NCBI GenBank assembly: GCA_021513715.1
Contig: CP084167.1
Span: forward strand, 3,040,001 to 3,104,000
Length of the DNA: 64,000 nt
Source of the DNA: Candidatus Heimdallarchaeum endolithica
Lineage (GTDB): Archaea > Asgardarchaeota > Heimdallarchaeia > Heimdallarchaeales > Heimdallarchaeaceae
Direction: 5' to 3'
A model generated the notes under the pieces. It made no database searches. It was not told the origin of the DNA and worked only from the letters and a program-made list of their open reading frames with translations. Below, piece after piece: positions 2,519 to 10,006 of the stretch (positions are counted from its first letter, which is position 1; each line of letters opens with the position of its first letter). Position numbers and translations under genes: made by a program.

Positions 2519-5500
2519 TTGGCAGATCTAGAACTATCAGAAAATGCATTAACTGTACTACAAAAAAGGTATTTGCTAAAAAACGAGAAAAATGAGGTAA
2601 TTGAAACTCCAGAACAGATGTTTGAAAGAGTAGCAAAAAGTATAGCTTCAAATGATGAAGAAAAAAAGGAATTTTATGAACTCATGACTTCATTAAGATT
2701 CCTGCCTAATAGTCCTACTCTTATGAATGCCGGAACAAAATTAGGTCAACTATCTGCTTGTTTCACTGGAGAACAGGTAATAATCACAGCTGAAGGAAAT
2801 AAGCAAATAAGAGATATTCAGATTGGAGATTTGGTTCTGACAGCTGAAGGTAATTTTAGAAAGGTTACCCAAACTATGCAGAGAAAAGTTGACAAAAGAT
2901 ATATTATTGATGTTTTGAAACTACCTAACTCTACTCTTTCTGTAACAGAAGATCATCCTATTCTTACCTATAAAGATGGAAAAATTAAGTGGAGTTTGGT
3001 AAAGGAATTAAGTAAAAACGATTTTGTAGCTTTATCATACCCAAAGGAAGTTGAAGATATTTCTTCAATTAATGTTATAGATTACTTATCTGATAAGCAT
3101 TATAAAGTAAAAGATGGTGTAGTAGTAAATAAAAATATAGAAGTTGAAACAGAATCTAGTGAAATAAGCGTTCATAAAGTCCCAATCAAAAATAAGATAG
3201 AAGTAGATGAAGATTTTCTTAGATTTTTGGGTTATTATGCTAGTGTGGGAGAATCAGATAAAAAAATAGTAAGATTCAGTTTTTCAGATAAGGAGATGGC
3301 TTATGCTGAAGAACTAATAACTATTGCAAAAAGAAAATTTGGATTAGATACAAGAGTAGAAATCTTGAATGAAAATATAGTAAAAGTTCAGTTTTGTTCT
3401 TCTATAATTAGTGAATTTATTAAGAAAATTATAGGAGATGTAAATAATAAAAGAGTCCCCATATGGATATTAAAATTACCCCCAGAAAAACAAGAAAACT
3501 TTGTTTTAGGGTGTTTTAGAGATGATAATTCTCTATTTTCTAATGGTTATATGCTTAATGCTCGATTATCTGCATGTAATGATAATTTAGTATATTCTAT
3601 ATGGATTATGTTAATGAGAATGGGAATAGTTCCCAATCTCGATAAATCATCTATTCCTAAAAGTGAAACCACCTATTCCTACTCTCCCTATATTAGTGAA
3701 ACAAAAGAGAGCAATTCCTTTGTAGAAATTCATGGAAAAGAAAGTAAAGGATCTTCACAACTATCTTTACAAAAATTAAAACATATAGTTGTTAATGATA
3801 CAGTTTTTCTCCCTATACAAAATATTGAATGTATCGAAGAACCTGTGACTGTATTTAATTTAGAAGTAGAGGAGGAACATACATATGTTGCAAATTTTGT
3901 TTCAGTTCACAATTGTTTTGTACTGCCAATAGATGATTCTCTTCCCTCCATTTTTGACGCAGTAAAAAAAGCAGCATTAATACACCAAAGTGGAGGAGGA
4001 TGCGTTGCTGAAGGAACAGTAATACCTACAGAAGAATTCGGTTTTATACCTATTGAGCAGATTTCTGGATTCGAAAAAATACCAGCTGATGAACAAGGAC
4101 ATGATTGTGAACCTTTTACTGTTTTTTCGTTTGATGAGGATTCAGAATCTTTCAAAAAAGGAAAAGTAACAAAACTTTGGAAATTTAAGAAAAGTAAGTA
4201 TTTACAAGTTAAATTCGGAAAAGAAGGAGTAATAGAAGTTACACACTGGCATCCTTTCATAGTTTATGTGCCTTCTGAAGAGCAAAAAAAAGAAGGAAAT
4301 TATACTGAAAAACGAGCAGATGAATTGAAAGTCGGAGATCTGTTGGTTAGTCCATCTACCCATAGGATAACTGAAACGTCTGGTATTTCAGATGCACACA
4401 AAGTTAGAGTAGAAGAAATAAAAGAGATAGAAGAAGAAAAAATATTCTATGACTTTACAGTAGAGAAATATAATAATTATCTAGCGGGGAATAAACAATT
4501 TACAGTGATTCATAACACTGGGTTTAGTTTTAGTAACATTAGACCAAAAAATGATGTAGTCAAAACTACTGGTGGGGTAGCTTGTTTTCCTGAAGATGTA
4601 AGGATTTATACTAACAAGGGATTATTAACAATCAAAGAAATAATCCAATCTGATCAACCAATTAAAGCTTTGACTCATGATGGATTCCACGAAATAATAA
4701 ATAAATACGATAACGGAGAAGCTGAAGTTTACAGACTTATTACATCTAATGGATATTCAGTTAAGGCAACCTCTACTCATAAATTTTTAACAATAGAAAA
4801 TAATGAGTTGGTACTAAAACCTCTTAATAAACTTCAAGAAGGAGATTATGTTCTTCTTTTTTCTACTTTTGAATCTGTTGATGAAAAAGAACCATTTAAG
4901 CTATCTCCTATTACTGACGATGGACAAACTTTTGATGAAATTTATCTTGATGAAGATCTTGCATATTTCATAGGATTAACTTATGCAGATGGACATATTA
5001 TTGATGATGGAAGACATTATAGCGTAAGAATCACTTTAAACAAGAACCAAATACGTATAATCGAAAAAATAAAGAAAATAGTTAAAACTAAGTTTGACTA
5101 TGATTTGAAAGTCTATGAGCGTAAAAATGTAAATAAAGTTGAACTTGTTCTACATGGAAAAAGATTTGTAAAATTGTTAAAAGAAAATAATTTACTTAAA
5201 GAAAAATGTGAAAATATTCGTATTCCAGAATTATTATTTCAAAGCCCAAGAAATGTCCTAAACTCATTTATTGCAGGATACTTCGATGGTGATGGTCATG
5301 TAAGTAAAAGCGGGCGAATTAGCATTAAAACAATATCCAAACAAATGAGTGAAGATTTTTCATTATTGATAACGCGGTTAGGTGTACTATCTACAACTCA
5401 TATTAGTCCCCCTATTTATGGAATAAGAAGAAATAAAAAAAGTTACAGAGTTTCAATCCCAACAGCTCTCTTCAAGAAAAGATTTGTAGAACAGCTTTCG

Positions 5501-8500
5501 AAATACTCAATAAAACTAGAAAATTATACACTGAAAGAAGGATCTACAAATAAACTTTTTTCTTATCCGTTTAACATCTTAACTCATATTGGGAATCCTT
5601 CCACGAGGGCAGATATATCTAGAACAATAATACCTTATAATAGGAAGAATACTTATCGTAAAGCTATTCTACGTATTCTTAAAAATTCTGATAAATATGG
5701 ACTTACACCAGATGAAATTGCTTTCTTAAAGAAACTAGAAAATCTTTACCCTATAAAGATAAAATCTATTAAAAAAGAAGGAATTGAACATGTTTATAAT
5801 CTCGAAGTTAAGAATGTCCATCGACTTGTTGCTAATGGATTTTATGTTTCAAATTCAGGCCCCATAAGTTTTATGGAAGTTTTTAATGCTGCAACAAATA
5901 CTATCAAACAAGGGGGATGTATTGCTGCTGAGAGTTTAGTAAGAACTACAAATGGTGTTCTTCCTGCTGGTGATTTACTTAATTGTCCTCCCCTTGGCGA
6001 AAACAACACTCAAGAATTAATCTATGATGGAGAGTCGTATAATAATGCTTTTCTGTCTCTGGATAATGGTTTTGCGGATGTATTAATTCTTGAAACTGAT
6101 CTGGGTTTAACTTTAAAAGCTACATATAATCATTTAATTGCTACAGTATATGAAAACGGGAATATTGTATGGACTGAGGTTGAGAAGATTAAGAAGGGCG
6201 ATTGGGTTGTAGTTGTATTAGGGGGTCACATTGGACAAAAAATCTTCCTCCCAAAAATAGAAAATCAACATCATAATGCTAATCCCATTAAAATCCCTGA
6301 ACAATTTAATGCTGAGCTTGGCGAAATCTTAGGTTTGTATATGGCTGATGGCTTTATTAGTACTGATGGTAAAATCATCTTTAGCGTTGACAATAAGGAT
6401 TCAGATCTCATTAAAAGAATCGAGTATTTAATGAAAAAAGTATTTAATTTAAAACTTGGAAGAATAGAAGATAAACAAACTTACTCGGATGTTATTTTCT
6501 ATTCTCGTGATCTATGCGACTATTTCAGTAAAATGAATTGGAAAAAAGAGTCATCATCAAAAGCTTTTGTCCCTAAAGAGATTTTTATTTCTGAACCAGA
6601 AATAGCAAAAGCATTTGTCAGAGGATTGTTTGAAGGCGATGGAAATGTTCATTCTGATGGATATCCAAGACTTTATTCTACATCTAAAGCATTAATTGAA
6701 CAAACTCAACAACTTCTTTTAGGACTTAACATTGTTTCTTCTGTAATAAAGGGAGAAGATAGAAGCAAGAGTTTAGGTGATTTATCTATCTATCAATTAT
6801 TAATAATTCTTGAAAGAAGTGTTATAAAATTCAAAGAAGAAATTGGTTTTATATCAAACAGAAAAAAACAGTTGCTGGAATCTAGGTTTACATGTAGAAA
6901 TTCCAAACAAATTAAGAATTCCAAGCATTTCCAACAGATGTCTGATCCAAAATACTATTTTACAAAGGTTATAGATATTAAAGAAAATCGAACTTATACA
7001 ATGGATTTTGAGGTGCCAGAATCCAGCAAATTCGTAGCAAATGGTTTCTTGGTACATAATCGTCGTCGGGGCGCTAACATGGGTATCCTTCGTGTTGACC
7101 ATCCTGATATCATGTCTTGGATTACTTGTAAAGAAGACCAGACCAAATTTACTAACTTTAACATTTCTGTTGCAGCCACTTCTGCGTTCATGCAAGCAGT
7201 AGAAGAAAATAGAGATTATGACTTGATTAACCCTCGTACAAAGAAAGTAGTAGGCAAACTTAATGCTACAGAAGTCTTTAACAAAATTGTGGAGATGGCT
7301 TGGAAGAATGGTGAACCTGGAATAGTTTTTATTGACCGCATGAATGAATTCAATCCTACTCCTGAAGTTGGAGATATAGAAAGTACTAACCCTTGTGTGG
7401 TAGGTGATTCATTAATATCTACAGAATTTGGATTAATGAAAATGCGTGATTTAGTCTCCAAGTTTCCTGAAGGTTCTGTAAAAATAGTTACAGATAACCG
7501 TGTTCCTCAACAAATATTAGCATCTGGAAACCAAGTGCAGTTGTTGGATACTAAAACTCAAGGAGTATCATTGAATACTATCACACATGCTTTCTCTACT
7601 GGGATAAAAGATGTATACAAACTAACTACAGTATCAGGTTATGAGTTGAAAGCTACTGGAGATCATAAAGTACTAACCAATGAAGGTTGGGTACAAGTAA
7701 AAGACTTAGATTGTAAAAAATATAGAATAAAGATACAATCTGGAGAAGGAGTTTTTAATAGTGTAAAAGAGTTACCCTTCAAAGTCGAAAATGAAATAAC
7801 TGGTGCGAACGGAAGAAAATATAGTTTTAATTTACCAAAAACATGGTCAAAAGAGTTAGGTCATGTACTTGGTTGGTTGGTAGGAGATGGTTGGATAAGG
7901 ACTGGAGATAAGAATAGAAGAGTAGGATTTACTTTTTCAAAGAAAGATGAAGAAGTGTTAAGGTATCTCAAGGATGTATTAAACAGATGGTATAACAAAC
8001 AAATAAATGAAATAAAAAGAGAAACAAATGTTTATCATTTAAGTTACCATTCAAAATATTTTGTTGATTTCTTCTTAAAATTAGGCGTTAAACCAGTAAA
8101 ATCAGCAAAAAAGGTTGTACCAGAGTCAATGTTTCTAGCTACTAAAGACGCTGTAATTGCTTTCCTACAAGCACTTTTCTCTGCAGATGGAACAATACGT
8201 TGCTCAAAGAAATCTTCAAGCGAATGGATAGCCCTTTCATCAAAAAGTAAAGAATTGTTAAAAGGAGTACAACTGTTATTGTTAAACTTGGGTATCAAAT
8301 CACGAATATTTGATCGAACAAGAAAAAGAAGAGAAAAAACATTCAAGTACATCGATAAAAATGGTTCTCTAAAATATTACAATAGTGATGGAATACTCTA
8401 TGAACTAGGAATATTTGGAAAAAATATTGACATATTCAAAGAAAAAATAAATTTCTTACAGGAGGAGAAAAAAGAAAAATTAGCGAAACTTAAGCCAAGA

Positions 8501-10006
8501 AAAAGAAGAGAAATCATTTTTGAAGAGAAGATAAAGAGTATCAAATATGTTGGAAAGAAAGAAGTATATGATTTAACTGAACCAAAAACATTAAGTTTCA
8601 TTGCAAATGGAATTGTAAGTTTAGATTGCGGAGAGCAACCCCTTCTCTCTTATGAGTCTTGTAATCTAGGTTCTATTAATCTTGTAAAGCATGTTAACGA
8701 TGGAGCGATAGACTGGTCTCTACTTGAATCAACTATCCGTACAGCTGTTCGCTTTTTAGATAATGTAATCGATCGTAATGTTTACATTATTCCTGAAATA
8801 GAAGAGATGACTAAAGCTAATAGAAAGATTGGCCTTGGATTAATGGGTTTTGCTGATTTACTTGTCGAACTGGGTATAAGATATGATACAGAAGAAGCAT
8901 TAGAAATAGCTGAAAAAGTTATGTCTTTCATTCAAAAAGTAGGCAGAGATGAATCTGTCAAATTAGGTGAAGAAAGAGGTAGTTTTCCTAACTTTGATAG
9001 AAGTATTTACAGAGAAAAGTACAAAACCATGAGAAATGCAACAATCACAACAATCGCTCCTACAGGAACTATTTCTCTTATTGCTGGATGTTCAAGTGGT
9101 ATCGAACCTTATTATGCAATAGCTTTTGTGCGAAATATACTAGGTGGAAAGAAACTTTTTGAAATTAATCCCATTTTCGAAAAAATAGCTAAAGAGAAAG
9201 GATTCTACTCTGAAGAGCTTGTGGAAAAAATTTCTTCTGTTCATTCTATACAGAAAATAGAGGAAATACCAGAAGAAATTAGAAAATTGTTTGTAACAAG
9301 TCAAGATGTTTCCCCTGAATGGCATGTGAGAATCCAAGCAGCTTTTCAGAAGTATACAGATAATGCTACTAGTAAAACAATTAATTTCTCAAAAGAGGCT
9401 ACAAAAGAAGATATAGCAAAAGCTTACAAGCTTGCTCATAAGCTGGGGTGCAAAGGTGTAACAGTCTATCGTGATGGTTCAAGGAAATATCAAGTATTGT
9501 CTACAAAAACGAAAAAGAAGCAAAAAGAGAAGCAACATGTTGTTACTACAGCTAAAGTTGTACCTAGAGCCAGACCAGAAATAACAATTGGTAAAACACA
9601 CAAAGTTAGAAGTGGTTGTGGTAATCTTTACGTTACTGTTAATCAAGATGAAAATGGGGATATTTTTGAAGTCTTTGTTCAAGTAGGTAAATCTGGAGGA
9701 TGTATCACCTCTCAAAGTGAGGCAATTGGAAGATTAATTTCTCTTTCACTTCGTTCTCATGTTTCAGTTGAATCCATTGTGAGACAACTGTCAGGGATAC
9801 GCTGTCCTAACCCTAGTTTCTACAAAGGAAAAAGTATTCTCTCTTGCGCTGATGGTATAGCTTTAGTGCTTGAGCAATATATCAAAGGAAATCCTAACGT
9901 ACGTGAATCTAATGGCTCTATCGTTTGTCCTGATTGTGGAGGAGTTTTAGCTTTTTCTGAGGGTTGCTATACTTGTACAAGCTGTGGTTACAGTAAGTGT
10001 AGTTAA
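2519..10006 (+). CDS. nrdJ: Adenosylcobalamin-dependent (class II) ribonucleotide reductase precursor with five inteins and a C-terminal TSCPD-like/Zn-ribbon domain
   Basis: Extein motifs FLPNSPTLMNAG, QLSA/CFV, GGG/TG, SGPISF, RRGANMG, TNP/CGEQ, CNLGSINL, TIAPTGTIS, KGVTVYRDG, SCADG, CPDC..CTSC. Removing 1773 aa of inteins leaves about 722 aa. Confidence 0.97.
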   Translation: MADLELSENALTVLQKRYLLKNEKNEVIETPEQMFERVAKSIASNDEEKKEFYELMTSLRFLPNSPTLMNAGTKLGQLSACFTGEQVIITAEGNKQIRDIQIGDLVLTAEGNFRKVTQTMQRKVDKRYIIDVLKLPNSTLSVTEDHPILTYKDGKIKWSLVKELSKNDFVALSYPKEVEDISSINVIDYLSDKHYKVKDGVVVNKNIEVETESSEISVHKVPIKNKIEVDEDFLRFLGYYASVGESDKKIVRFSFSDKEMAYAEELITIAKRKFGLDTRVEILNENIVKVQFCSSIISEFIKKIIGDVNNKRVPIWILKLPPEKQENFVLGCFRDDNSLFSNGYMLNARLSACNDNLVYSIWIMLMRMGIVPNLDKSSIPKSETTYSYSPYISETKESNSFVEIHGKESKGSSQLSLQKLKHIVVNDTVFLPIQNIECIEEPVTVFNLEVEEEHTYVANFVSVHNCFVLPIDDSLPSIFDAVKKAALIHQSGGGCVAEGTVIPTEEFGFIPIEQISGFEKIPADEQGHDCEPFTVFSFDEDSESFKKGKVTKLWKFKKSKYLQVKFGKEGVIEVTHWHPFIVYVPSEEQKKEGNYTEKRADELKVGDLLVSPSTHRITETSGISDAHKVRVEEIKEIEEEKIFYDFTVEKYNNYLAGNKQFTVIHNTGFSFSNIRPKNDVVKTTGGVACFPEDVRIYTNKGLLTIKEIIQSDQPIKALTHDGFHEIINKYDNGEAEVYRLITSNGYSVKATSTHKFLTIENNELVLKPLNKLQEGDYVLLFSTFESVDEKEPFKLSPITDDGQTFDEIYLDEDLAYFIGLTYADGHIIDDGRHYSVRITLNKNQIRIIEKIKKIVKTKFDYDLKVYERKNVNKVELVLHGKRFVKLLKENNLLKEKCENIRIPELLFQSPRNVLNSFIAGYFDGDGHVSKSGRISIKTISKQMSEDFSLLITRLGVLSTTHISPPIYGIRRNKKSYRVSIPTALFKKRFVEQLSKYSIKLENYTLKEGSTNKLFSYPFNILTHIGNPSTRADISRTIIPYNRKNTYRKAILRILKNSDKYGLTPDEIAFLKKLENLYPIKIKSIKKEGIEHVYNLEVKNVHRLVANGFYVSNSGPISFMEVFNAATNTIKQGGCIAAESLVRTTNGVLPAGDLLNCPPLGENNTQELIYDGESYNNAFLSLDNGFADVLILETDLGLTLKATYNHLIATVYENGNIVWTEVEKIKKGDWVVVVLGGHIGQKIFLPKIENQHHNANPIKIPEQFNAELGEILGLYMADGFISTDGKIIFSVDNKDSDLIKRIEYLMKKVFNLKLGRIEDKQTYSDVIFYSRDLCDYFSKMNWKKESSSKAFVPKEIFISEPEIAKAFVRGLFEGDGNVHSDGYPRLYSTSKALIEQTQQLLLGLNIVSSVIKGEDRSKSLGDLSIYQLLIILERSVIKFKEEIGFISNRKKQLLESRFTCRNSKQIKNSKHFQQMSDPKYYFTKVIDIKENRTYTMDFEVPESSKFVANGFLVHNRRRGANMGILRVDHPDIMSWITCKEDQTKFTNFNISVAATSAFMQAVEENRDYDLINPRTKKVVGKLNATEVFNKIVEMAWKNGEPGIVFIDRMNEFNPTPEVGDIESTNPCVVGDSLISTEFGLMKMRDLVSKFPEGSVKIVTDNRVPQQILASGNQVQLLDTKTQGVSLNTITHAFSTGIKDVYKLTTVSGYELKATGDHKVLTNEGWVQVKDLDCKKYRIKIQSGEGVFNSVKELPFKVENEITGANGRKYSFNLPKTWSKELGHVLGWLVGDGWIRTGDKNRRVGFTFSKKDEEVLRYLKDVLNRWYNKQINEIKRETNVYHLSYHSKYFVDFFLKLGVKPVKSAKKVVPESMFLATKDAVIAFLQALFSADGTIRCSKKSSSEWIALSSKSKELLKGVQLLLLNLGIKSRIFDRTRKRREKTFKYIDKNGSLKYYNSDGILYELGIFGKNIDIFKEKINFLQEEKKEKLAKLKPRKRREIIFEEKIKSIKYVGKKEVYDLTEPKTLSFIANGIVSLDCGEQPLLSYESCNLGSINLVKHVNDGAIDWSLLESTIRTAVRFLDNVIDRNVYIIPEIEEMTKANRKIGLGLMGFADLLVELGIRYDTEEALEIAEKVMSFIQKVGRDESVKLGEERGSFPNFDRSIYREKYKTMRNATITTIAPTGTISLIAGCSSGIEPYYAIAFVRNILGGKKLFEINPIFEKIAKEKGFYSEELVEKISSVHSIQKIEEIPEEIRKLFVTSQDVSPEWHVRIQAAFQKYTDNATSKTINFSKEATKEDIAKAYKLAHKLGCKGVTVYRDGSRKYQVLSTKTKKKQKEKQHVVTTAKVVPRARPEITIGKTHKVRSGCGNLYVTVNQDENGDIFEVFVQVGKSGGCITSQSEAIGRLISLSLRSHVSVESIVRQLSGIRCPNPSFYKGKSILSCADGIALVLEQYIKGNPNVRESNGSIVCPDCGGVLAFSEGCYTCTSCGYSKCS
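2759..3913 (+). mobile_element. Intein 1 (385 aa), degenerate LAGLIDADG endonuclease
   Basis: QLSA|CFTGEQ...VTEDHP...FVSVHN|CFV. Endonuclease motifs eroded (LGYYASVG, LGCFRDDN). Confidence 0.92.
4001..4516 (+). mobile_element. Intein 2 (172 aa mini-intein)
   Basis: SGGG|CVAEGT...VTHWHPF...FTVIHN|TGF. No endonuclease domain. Confidence 0.92.
4583..5854 (+). mobile_element. Intein 3 (424 aa) with LAGLIDADG endonuclease
   Basis: GGVA|CFPEDV...ATSTHKF...IGLTYADG...IAGYFDGDG...GFYVSN|SGP. Confidence 0.92.
5918..7060 (+). mobile_element. Intein 4 (381 aa) with LAGLIDADG endonuclease; +1 residue is Arg
   Basis: KQGG|CIAAES...ATYNHL...LGLYMADG...VRGLFEGDG...GFLVHN|RRRGANMG. Confidence 0.9.
7394..8626 (+). 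mobile_element. Intein 5 (411 aa) with LAGLIDADG endonuclease; C-terminal Asp
   Basis: STNP|CVVGDS...ATGDHKV...LGWLVGDG...LQALFSADG...NGIVSLD|CGEQ. Confidence 0.9.

What the first reader, a model, noticed from the sequence alone, without database searches (positions are those of the whole stretch)
5918..7063. Intein followed by Arg: no +1 nucleophile for canonical protein splicing
Seen: QGG|C...TYNH...VHN|RRRGANMG (CAT AAT CGT CGT CGG), with Cys1, block B His, terminal His-Asn and both LAGLIDADG motifs intact. Precise removal restores the normal NrdJ motif QGG-R-RRGANMG, so Arg looks like the native host residue rather than damage. Known: all standard intein classes need Cys/Ser/Thr at +1. 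Inference: one of three things holds. Ligation may occur by a non-canonical route, such as aminolysis of the Cys1 thioester by the freed alpha-amine after Asn cyclisation. Double cleavage may yield a functional two-chain RNR nicked in this loop. Or the allele is dead or miscalled, since CGT is one base from TGT and AGT. If real, this is an undescribed class of mobile intein and a useful ligation tool.
Basis: partly seen in the sequence, partly recalled or inferred. Interest (0 to 1): 0.85.

Follow-up and report, generated by a model that had tools for sequence, protein, structure and literature searches.

The report
Intein without a downstream splicing nucleophile
The only ribonucleotide reductase gene of this Heimdall-group archaeon carries an intact self-excising protein insert (intein) followed by arginine, not the Cys/Ser/Thr that every described intein class needs; a whole old, widespread archaeal intein lineage shares this, so the enzyme must mature by a route never shown for an intein.

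Summary
Window 5918-7060 encodes a 381-aa intein in loop 2 of a five-intein NrdJ. It has Cys1, the block B Thr/His and a terminal His-Asn. It is followed by Arg (CGT, 7061-7063).

It is not an error or a dead allele.
- 133 homologous inteins at QGG|xRRGA carry K, R, I or M at +1, and none carries S, T or C.
- They form one clade (support 99) next to canonical T/S-type inteins at the same site.
- They occur in at least 12 archaeal phyla.
- In the same family, 14 genomes have the empty site KQGG[R/K]RRGANMG. That is exactly the product of precise excision.
- This NrdJ is the only RNR found in eight carrier genomes, four of them closed or single-contig.
- The clade kept the chemistry for thioester formation and Asn cyclisation but remodelled its active site.

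Best reading (about 55%): ligation by attack of the freed alpha-amine on the Cys1 thioester, as proposed for type A bacterial intein-like domains. The main rival is double cleavage giving a two-chain RNR. Nothing here tests the chemistry.

I found no description of this lineage in the paper library. This scan noted the same lineage earlier in three other Asgard genomes.

The parts
2519..10006 (+). nrdJ: class II (B12-dependent) ribonucleotide reductase, 2495 aa with five in-frame inteins. It is the only RNR found in the genome.
   Evidence: Pfam Ribonuc_red_lgN, Ribonuc_red_lgC and TSCPD plus 5 Intein_splicing stretches. One PF02867 match and no NrdD in the 3.33-Mb single-contig genome.
5906..5917 (+). 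End of the N-extein: Lys-Gln-Gly-Gly of the loop-2 motif. Residue -1 is Gly.
   Evidence: KQGG is invariant in the 70 non-redundant clade members.
5918..7060 (+). Intein 4, 381 aa (residues 1134-1514 of the ORF): class-1-like HINT splicing domain plus a LAGLIDADG endonuclease domain.
   Evidence: Pfam. AlphaFold2 model pLDDT 90.4, pTM 0.91. Nearest solved folds are the TliVMA/PhoVMA inteins, PI-PfuI, PI-PkoII and PI-SceI.
5918..5920 (+). Cys1 (TGT), nucleophile for the N-S acyl shift.
   Evidence: Cys in 70/70 clade members and 40/40 canonical relatives.
5942..5944 (+). Arg9 (block A position 9), a clade-specific conserved residue.
   Evidence: Arg in 65/70 clade members and 0/40 canonical relatives, including 0/12 of the sister group.
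6122..6133 (+). Block B: Thr69-Tyr-Asn-His72 (B:7 to B:10).
   Evidence: Thr 70/70 and His 67/70. B:8 is Tyr in the clade and Pro in canonical relatives.
6326..6355 (+). LAGLIDADG motif 1 (LGLYMADGF). The Cys after DG that is conserved in relatives is Phe here.
6617..6649 (+). LAGLIDADG motif 2 (RGLFEGDG).
6890..6895 (+). Scar of a 67-aa in-frame deletion, between intein residues 325 and 326 (nt 6892/6893). The lost segment is conserved in the 448-aa relatives.
   Evidence: Alignment with the same-genus copy and six same-family copies. The lost columns hold residues conserved across the clade.
7004..7006 (+). Block F Asp363 (F:4). The block F His seven residues later in canonical relatives is Ser here.
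   Evidence: Asp/Glu in 68/70. The block F His is present in 32/40 canonical relatives and 0/70 clade members.
7055..7060 (+). His380-Asn381 (G:6, G:7), preceded by Leu-Val (G:4, G:5).
   Evidence: His-Asn 70/70. G:5 is Val/Ile/Leu in 70/70 clade members and Ser/Thr in 37/40 canonical relatives.
7061..7063 (+). +1 residue Arg (CGT): no side-chain nucleophile of the kind used in splicing.
   Evidence: The same-genus genome also has Arg. It aligns with Arg206 of T. maritima NrdJ.
7064..7084 (+). C-extein Arg-Arg-Gly-Ala-Asn-Met-Gly, the rest of the loop-2 motif. It contains no Cys/Ser/Thr.

Best explanation
Intein 4 belongs to one old, widespread lineage of homing-endonuclease-bearing inteins. 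They sit at the QGG|xRRGA loop-2 site of class II RNR and descend from canonical class 1 inteins at the same site. They have lost any need for a Cys/Ser/Thr at +1. Because the interrupted NrdJ is the only RNR found, the intein must be removed.

The most likely route has three steps. (1) An N-S acyl shift at Gly(-1)-Cys1 makes a thioester. (2) Asn381 cyclises and frees the alpha-amino group of Arg+1. (3) That amine attacks the unhindered Gly thioester directly and forms the native Gly-Arg peptide bond. This is the route proposed for type A bacterial intein-like (BIL) domains.

Shown by sequence: the anatomy, the conservation, the single origin, the matching empty alleles, the single RNR gene found, and the remodelled active site. 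Inferred: all three chemical steps, their order, and that ligation rather than mere cleavage results.
For: Recurrence. 133 inteins at this site carry K/R/I/M at +1 and 49 carry T/S.

Single origin. The non-nucleophile rows form one clade in FastTree and in IQ-TREE (support 99, one change). Identity within the clade falls to 27%.

Catalytic residues kept. Cys1 70/70, block B Thr 70/70, block B His 67/70, block F Asp/Glu 68/70, His-Asn 70/70.

Selection. Omega is about 0.07-0.29.

Active-site remodelling on the stem branch. Arg9 was gained. The basic residues at B:11 and B:13 and the block F His-Thr were lost. G:5 changed from Ser/Thr to Val.

No reversion. The +1 residue changed six times among K/R/I/M but never to S/T/C. 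Yet 56 of 58 junction codons are one base away from an S/T/C codon.

Empty alleles. Fourteen same-family genomes read KQGG[R/K]RRGANMG, so a ligated product would be identical to a working native enzyme. One genus holds both states.

Only RNR found. One RNR ORF and no NrdD in eight carrier genomes from three phyla, four of them closed or single-contig.

Precedent. The thioester, Asn cyclisation and alpha-amine attack route is the proposed mechanism of type A BILs (PMC4031507).
Against: No experiment or proteomic datum is available. Type A BILs give mostly cleavage products, not ligated ones (PMC4031507; PMC7664689). From general knowledge, canonical inteins mutated at +1 cleave without ligating. 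Conservation of Cys1 and His-Asn is equally expected if only double cleavage is needed. Loss of the block F His could weaken Asn cyclisation. The active-site differences trace to a single evolutionary event, so they are one observation, not 70.
Confidence: 0.55

Rival explanations
1. Double cleavage without ligation. The Cys1 thioester is hydrolysed or thiolysed and Asn381 cyclises. This releases the intein and leaves a non-covalent two-chain NrdJ nicked between Gly and Arg of loop 2, which is still active.
For: HINT domains without a +1 nucleophile (BILs) give predominantly cleaved products (PMC7664689). A fragmented RNR large subunit can work: phage Aeh1 NrdA-a/NrdA-b (PMC3045599). Conservation of Cys1 and His-Asn fits cleavage as well as splicing.
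Against: The Aeh1 pieces need special tails to assemble. Here the exteins of intein-bearing and empty alleles are identical around the site, with no sign of adaptation to a nick. The nick would add two charged ends inside the substrate-specificity loop. It would also have to be tolerated at once in each newly invaded host across at least 12 phyla. Four other inteins in the same protein must splice normally.
Confidence: 0.22
2. Ligation with help from elsewhere. A remote extein or intein nucleophile, for example one of the RNR active-site cysteines brought near in the folded precursor, takes over the acyl group. Or a host factor joins or trims the pieces.
For: Only indirect. Inteins 1 and 5 of this protein use the catalytic cysteines as their +1 residues. 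Earlier notes of this scan report a second RNR loop-2 intein lineage with Gly at +1 (not tested here), which hints that the site itself may help.
Against: The clade gained no invariant Cys/Ser/Thr compared with its canonical relatives. A remote nucleophile still needs a final attack by the +1 alpha-amine. No candidate factor was found or looked for.
Confidence: 0.1
3. The intein is never removed. NrdJ works with a roughly 380-450-aa domain permanently inserted in loop 2, and the splicing-type residues are kept for another reason.
For: None directly. It cannot be excluded by sequence alone.
Against: Cys1 and His-Asn are invariant over a clade that has diverged to 27% identity, which points to use of the chemistry. 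The insert sits between residues aligned to Gly205 and Arg206 of the T. maritima enzyme, in the loop that reads the substrate base (from memory of the T. maritima NrdJ structural work).
Confidence: 0.05
4. Sequencing or assembly error, or a dead allele: the true codon is AGT/TGT, or the gene is a pseudogene.
For: CGT is one base away from AGT and TGT.
Against: The same-genus closed genome and seven other same-family assemblies have R or K. So do 133 sequences from independent projects. The ORF is open over 2495 codons. It is the only RNR found. Selection is purifying.
Confidence: 0.02

Closest known systems
Canonical class 1 LAGLIDADG inteins at the same NrdJ site (QGG|C...[S/T]HN|[T/S]RRGA), e.g. 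P0022, P0024, P0030, P0031 from Woesearchaeota and other MAGs
   Same: Same insertion point, same domain architecture and length, about 30-35% identity. They share Cys1, block B Thr/His, block F Asp and His-Asn. They are the sister or paraphyletic stem of the clade.
   Different: They are followed by Thr/Ser. They also keep the block F His-Thr, the basic residues at B:11/B:13 and Ser/Thr at G:5. The clade has lost all of these and gained Arg9.
Type A bacterial intein-like (BIL) domains (Dassa et al. 2004 J Biol Chem; Aranko et al. 2013 FEBS J, PDB 2lwy; as summarised in PMC4031507 and PMC7664689)
   Same: HINT domain with an N-terminal Cys and C-terminal His-Asn and no +1 nucleophile. The proposed ligation route is thioester, Asn cyclisation, then alpha-amine attack.
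   Different: By the literature and my own knowledge, BILs are small bacterial domains without an endonuclease, found in variable, non-essential proteins. They mostly cleave. This element is a mobile, endonuclease-bearing intein at a conserved site of an essential archaeal enzyme. It is related by descent to canonical RNR inteins, and no BIL-type Pfam family matched it.
Solved homing-endonuclease inteins: TliVMA and PhoVMA (7qss, 7qsu, 7qst), PI-PfuI (1dq3, an RNR intein), PI-PkoII (2cw7), PI-SceI (1vde)
   Same: Same overall fold in the predicted model: Foldseek E 6e-27 to 1e-13, TM 0.56-0.69. Sequence match to 7qsu at E 3e-17.
   Different: 12-21% identity. To my knowledge all of them are canonical inteins with a +1 nucleophile.
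[quoted passage not shown]
   Same: Natural inteins that splice although one canonical nucleophile is missing. Each arose as one lineage with compensating active-site changes.
   Different: Those classes lack the N-terminal nucleophile and still need Cys/Ser/Thr at +1. Here Cys1 is kept and +1 is lost.
Fragmented NrdA of Aeromonas phage Aeh1 (PMC3045599)
   Same: An RNR large subunit interrupted by a mobile element that works as two chains. It is the precedent for the rival reading.
   Different: The split is at gene level, caused by a free-standing endonuclease. Assembly needs dedicated tails. No HINT chemistry is involved.

Membership tests
Class 1 intein | HINT splicing domain (blocks A, B, F, G) | tested here: met
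   Pfam Intein_splicing 43.9 bits, above the 35.8 cut-off. High-confidence intein fold.
Class 1 intein | Cys or Ser at intein position 1 | tested here: met
   Cys1, TGT 5918-5920. 70/70 in the clade.
Class 1 intein | Block B Thr-x-x-His and a C-terminal (His-)Asn | tested here: met
   T69/H72 and H380/N381.
Class 1 intein | Cys, Ser or Thr as the first C-extein residue (+1), needed for the branched intermediate | tested here: not met
   +1 is Arg (CGT 7061-7063). K/R/I/M in all 133 clade members.
Class 1 intein | Demonstrated protein splicing | not testable with these tools
   Needs expression and mass spectrometry.
Class 3 intein | No N-terminal nucleophile; Trp B:12, Cys F:4, Thr G:5 (WCT) | tested here: not met
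   Cys1 is present, F:4 is Asp and G:5 is Val.
Type A BIL domain | HINT domain with N-terminal Cys, C-terminal His-Asn and no +1 nucleophile | tested here: met
Type A BIL domain | Small domain without an endonuclease, in variable bacterial proteins; its own sequence family | tested here: not met
   It carries a LAGLIDADG domain, sits at a conserved site of an archaeal NrdJ, and groups with canonical RNR inteins. The only Pfam matches are Intein_splicing and LAGLIDADG_3. No BIL profile was available for a direct test.
LAGLIDADG homing endonuclease | Two LAGLIDADG motifs with their acidic residues | tested here: met
   LAGLIDADG_3 in two stretches, 74.6 bits. The motifs are ...MADG and ...EGDG.
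LAGLIDADG homing endonuclease | Complete, active enzyme (mobility) | tested here: inconclusive
   This copy lacks 67 conserved residues that are present in the same-genus copy. The lineage as a whole shows presence/absence within one genus and low dS for inteins 3-4 compared with the exteins.
Class II ribonucleotide reductase (NrdJ), the host protein | RNR barrel, N-terminal all-alpha domain, and similarity to solved B12-dependent RNRs | tested here: met
   Pfam. The C-extein segment matches T. maritima NrdJ 1xje at E 1.7e-16.

The most novel reading that the evidence does not exclude
This lineage is a fourth mechanistic class of inteins. It is a mobile, endonuclease-bearing intein that efficiently ligates its exteins with no side-chain nucleophile at +1, by direct alpha-amine attack on the Cys1 thioester. 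Its active site is re-tuned for this: Arg at A:9 was gained, the block F His-Thr and the basic residues at B:11/B:13 were lost, and G:5 is hydrophobic. The re-tuning goes so far that Ser/Thr/Cys at +1 is no longer used or tolerated.
Probability: 0.4. Interest if true: 0.9.

Novelty: new variant of a known kind. Interest (0 to 1): 0.8.

Why it matters
A Cys/Ser/Thr at +1 is treated as a defining requirement of all three intein classes, and it limits where inteins can be used in protein engineering because it leaves a scar residue. Here a large, old, mobile lineage breaks that rule inside an essential enzyme in Asgard, DPANN, methanogen-related and other archaea. If it ligates, it extends protein-splicing chemistry beyond BIL domains to true inteins. 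It would offer a naturally optimised scaffold for ligation next to Lys, Arg, Ile or Met. It would also show how an intein can colonise alleles that lack a nucleophile. If it only cleaves, many archaea run on a two-chain RNR nicked in the specificity loop, which would be equally unexpected. Either way the question can be settled with one expression construct.

Tried and rejected
1. Error or pseudogene: rejected (see rivals).
2. Shifted intein boundaries. No Asn/Gln/Asp followed by Cys/Ser/Thr lies near either junction, block G (F-V-A-N-G-x-L-V-H-N) ends normally, and the C-extein has no S/T/C in its first 8 residues.
3. A substitute nucleophile inside the intein. A column-by-column comparison found no invariant clade-specific Cys/Ser/Thr. 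Cys23 occurs in only 44/70 and Ser3 in 56/70.
4. A second RNR that would make this gene dispensable: none found. PF02867 matched once and PF13597 not at all. The genome is estimated 92.6% complete but is a single contig.
5. Literature. Nine full-text searches and reading of PMC4760082, PMC5784728 and the 2025 actinophage-intein preprint found no description of an intein lineage lacking a +1 nucleophile. The library misses most subscription papers, so absence is not proven.
6. The AlphaFold model gave fold and confidence only, not coordinates. The position of Arg9 relative to the junctions could not be measured.
7. dN/dS. Most same-family pairs are saturated at synonymous sites, so the omega values are rough.
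8. Complex prediction and the RNA tools were not relevant and were not used.
Full report
**What is in the window.**
An open frame at 2519..10006 (+) encodes 2495 aa. Pfam finds the N-terminal, barrel and TSCPD domains of a ribonucleotide reductase, interrupted by five Intein_splicing and four LAGLIDADG_3 stretches. The C-extein piece after the finding matches the B12-dependent NrdJ of Thermotoga maritima (1xje) at E 1.7e-16.

By inspection the five inteins are as follows:

| Intein | ORF residues | Junctions |
|---|---|---|
| 1 | 81-465 | SA\|C...HN\|C |
| 2 | 495-666 | GGG\|C...HN\|T |
| 3 | 689-1112 | GVA\|C...SN\|S |
| 4 | 1134-1514 | QGG\|C...HN\|R |
| 5 | 1626-2036 | TNP\|C...LD\|C |

Intein 4 is the finding. 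Cys1 is TGT at 5918-5920. Thr69-Tyr-Asn-His72 lies at 6122-6133. His-Asn is CAT AAT at 7055-7060. Next comes CGT (Arg, 7061-7063), then Arg-Arg-Gly-Ala-Asn-Met-Gly.

On its own, intein 4 passes Pfam's cut-offs for Intein_splicing and LAGLIDADG_3. A 70-sequence alignment gives an AlphaFold2 model with pLDDT 90.4 and pTM 0.91. The nearest solved folds are endonuclease-bearing archaeal and yeast inteins: TliVMA, PhoVMA, PI-PfuI, PI-PkoII and PI-SceI.

**Not an error, and not a one-off.**
I ran an exhaustive HMMER search of 1.84 billion representatives with the intein plus flanks, and a second search of the 90% clusters. Together they returned 182 inteins at exactly this site. The residue after His-Asn is K 107, R 17, I 8, M 1, T 29, S 20.

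After thinning to below 85% identity, 110 rows remained. The 70 rows with K/R/I/M form a single clade in FastTree (local support 99) and in IQ-TREE (SH-aLRT 99). One change of state is needed, against about 33 expected for shuffled labels. The nearest rows outside the clade are canonical Thr-type inteins at the same site. Loss of the nucleophile within an ordinary class 1 lineage is therefore the parsimonious direction, although the root was not inferred.

The clade is old. Pairwise identity runs from 27% to 85%, median 46%. A scan of one genome per species found it in many groups:
- Heimdall-, Hod-, Hermod-, Thor- and Promethearchaeota;
- Micrarchaeota, Aenigmatarchaeota, Woesearchaeota and Nanobdellota;
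- Methanobacteriota (including Methanoperedens and a Methanospirillum MAG), Thermoplasmatota, Hydrothermarchaeota, Culexarchaeota and Nitrososphaerota;
- a few bacterial MAGs (Chloroflexota, Actinomycetota, Acidobacteriota and one Patescibacteria bin).

One of the two scan patterns was built on the K/R/I junction, so this list shows breadth, not frequencies.

**Arg is the host's own residue, and the gene must work.**
The window lies in a 3.33-Mb single-contig genome. Its same-genus relative G001 is Candidatus Heimdallarchaeum aukensis PM71.

In 22 same-family genomes that hold this NrdJ, eight carry the intein. Their +1 residue is Arg seven times and Lys once. The other fourteen have the uninterrupted sequence ...NT[IV]KQGG-[R/K]-RRGANMGILR[VI]D. 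One genus contains both states. Precise excision of intein 4 would therefore recreate an allele that demonstrably exists and functions in close relatives. The residue also aligns with Arg206 of the T. maritima enzyme.

PF02867 (class I and II large subunits) matches only this ORF, and PF13597 (class III) matches nothing. This holds in the window's genome, in five other carriers of the family, in the complete genome of Nanoarchaeota archaeon YN1, and in a Micrarchaeota chromosome. The positive controls matched as expected. Eight carrier genomes in three phyla thus have no other RNR that these profiles detect. DPANN cells might obtain deoxynucleotides from a host, but that is less likely for a 3.3-Mb Heimdall-group archaeon.

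**The splicing machinery is kept but re-tuned.**
Across the 70 clade members the catalytic residues are conserved:

| Residue | Conservation |
|---|---|
| Cys1 | 70/70 |
| Block B Thr | 70/70 |
| Block B His | 67/70 |
| Block F Asp or Glu | 68/70 |
| His-Asn | 70/70 |

The three rows without the block B His include the YN1-type sublineage. Two of them also carry His in place of the block F Asp.

Nei-Gojobori omega between same-family copies is 0.07-0.29 in both the splicing and the endonuclease parts. Synonymous sites are mostly saturated.

Compared with 40 canonical relatives, including the 12 of the sister group, the clade differs at positions next to the catalytic ones:

| Position | Clade (70) | Canonical relatives (40) |
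|---|---|---|
| Block A position 9 | Arg 65/70 | Arg 0/40 |
| B:8 | Tyr | Pro |
| B:11, B:13 | Lys/Arg lost | Lys/Arg |
| Block F His-Thr (7-8 residues after the block F Asp) | His 0/70 | His 32/40 |
| G:5 | Val/Ile/Leu | Ser/Thr |
| G:4 | Leu | Val |

The numbering of B:7, B:10, G:6 and G:7 follows PMC4031507. All these changes map to the stem of the clade. They are one historical event, not independent confirmations.

No new invariant Cys/Ser/Thr appeared. Inside the clade the +1 residue changed at least six times among K, R, I and M, and never to S, T or C. Yet 56 of 58 distinct junction codons are one base away from such a codon, and intein-free NrdJs often have Thr or Ser there. The side chain at +1 is evidently not the nucleophile, since Ile and Met are accepted. 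A nucleophile there is either not needed or not welcome.

**How it most likely works.**
[quoted passage not shown] They also state that the HINT domains lacking this residue are the bacterial intein-like domains (PMC4031507; PMC7664689).

For type A BILs, which have Cys1 and His-Asn, the proposed route has three steps: a thioester forms at the N-terminus, Asn cyclises at the C-terminus, and the freed alpha-amine attacks the thioester. The anatomy here fits that route. The needed residues are conserved. The -1 and -2 residues are invariant Gly, which gives an unhindered thioester in a flexible loop. Any long +1 side chain is tolerated.

I rate this at about 0.55. The main caveat is that BILs give mostly cleavage products.

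The main rival, at about 0.22, is double cleavage leaving a two-chain RNR. A fragmented RNR can be active: phage Aeh1 NrdA works in two pieces, but only with dedicated tails (PMC3045599). Here the intein-bearing and empty alleles share identical flanks. The nick would lie in the specificity loop. It would also have to be harmless immediately after each invasion of a new host.

The remaining rivals are a remote nucleophile or helper factor (0.1), permanent retention of the intein (0.05), and error (0.02). None of the chemistry is shown by anything I could run.

**This particular copy.**
Compared with the 448-aa copies in the same-genus genome and six relatives, the window's intein has a clean 67-aa in-frame deletion after residue 325 (nt 6892/6893). 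The deletion removes a segment whose residues are conserved across the clade. The copy also has Phe in place of the conserved Cys after the first LAGLIDADG motif. The endonuclease is probably inactive here, while every splicing residue is intact. That is the pattern expected of a fixed intein that must still excise.

Between the two Heimdallarchaeum genomes, synonymous divergence is 0.42 in the exteins, 0.058 in intein 3 and 0.136 in intein 4. The other inteins give 0.22-0.39. This suggests that the stretch from intein 3 to intein 4 was exchanged more recently than the rest of the gene. It fits the presence/absence pattern, but it rests on a single pair of genomes.

**Comparison with what is known, and novelty.**
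By descent and architecture this is a class 1 LAGLIDADG intein. It fails the class 1 definition on one tested feature, the +1 nucleophile. It resembles type A BILs in its probable chemistry, but it is not a BIL: it carries an endonuclease, sits at a conserved essential site in archaea, and groups with RNR inteins.

Nine full-text searches and three papers read found no description of such a lineage. The library is incomplete. I rate the finding a new variant of a known kind. It would become a new mechanistic class if ligation is demonstrated.

Earlier AI notes of this scan reported the same lineage in three other Asgard genomes. They also reported a separate Gly+1 intein lineage in viral class I RNR loop 2. 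I re-derived the first claim independently here and did not test the second.

Noticed in passing
window 7394-8626 (intein 5, ORF residues 1626-2036): Intein 5, at the thiyl-radical Cys site (TNP|C...SLD|CGEQ), ends in Leu-Asp instead of His-Asn. At this site, 5 of the other NrdJ sequences collected here end in LD. Others end in RQ, HQ, LQ, RN or HN. C-terminal Asp/Gln inteins are known to splice (PMC4031507).
   Followed up: partly
window 4583-5854 (intein 3, ORF residues 689-1112): Intein 3 ends in Ser-Asn, so it lacks the penultimate His. This is a known minority variant. Its +1 residue is Ser.
   Followed up: no
window 6890-6895 (within intein 4): A 67-aa in-frame deletion in the endonuclease part compared with the 448-aa copy in Ca. 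Heimdallarchaeum aukensis and six same-family genomes. The endonuclease is probably dead while the splicing residues are intact.
   Followed up: yes
window 4583-7060 versus L032 (G001:C1:2809500-2818500): Synonymous divergence between the two Heimdallarchaeum nrdJ genes is 0.42 in the exteins, 0.058 in intein 3 and 0.136 in intein 4. The 21-codon extein between them gives 0.16. This looks like a more recent exchange (homing or gene conversion) of this block. It rests on one genome pair.
   Followed up: partly
whole genome G000, e.g. C1:3120822-3121550, 2462778-2466471, 1674508-1676001, 1975836-1977311: The genome is intein-rich: 20 Intein_splicing matches in at least 10 long ORFs besides nrdJ. 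I did not check the +1 residues of those.
   Followed up: no
P0019, P0021 and locus L081 (Nanoarchaeota archaeon YN1, AP031373.1:276546-280592): A sublineage of the clade has also replaced the block B His with Glu and the block F Asp with His, and lacks Arg9. It still interrupts the only RNR ORF found in a complete 773-kb genome. This is a second step away from the canonical active site.
   Followed up: partly
window 2759-3913 and 7394-8626: Inteins 1 and 5 use the two conserved active-site cysteines of NrdJ (SAC|F and NPC|GE) as their +1 nucleophiles. Three of the five inteins therefore sit directly on catalytic or specificity elements.
   Followed up: no
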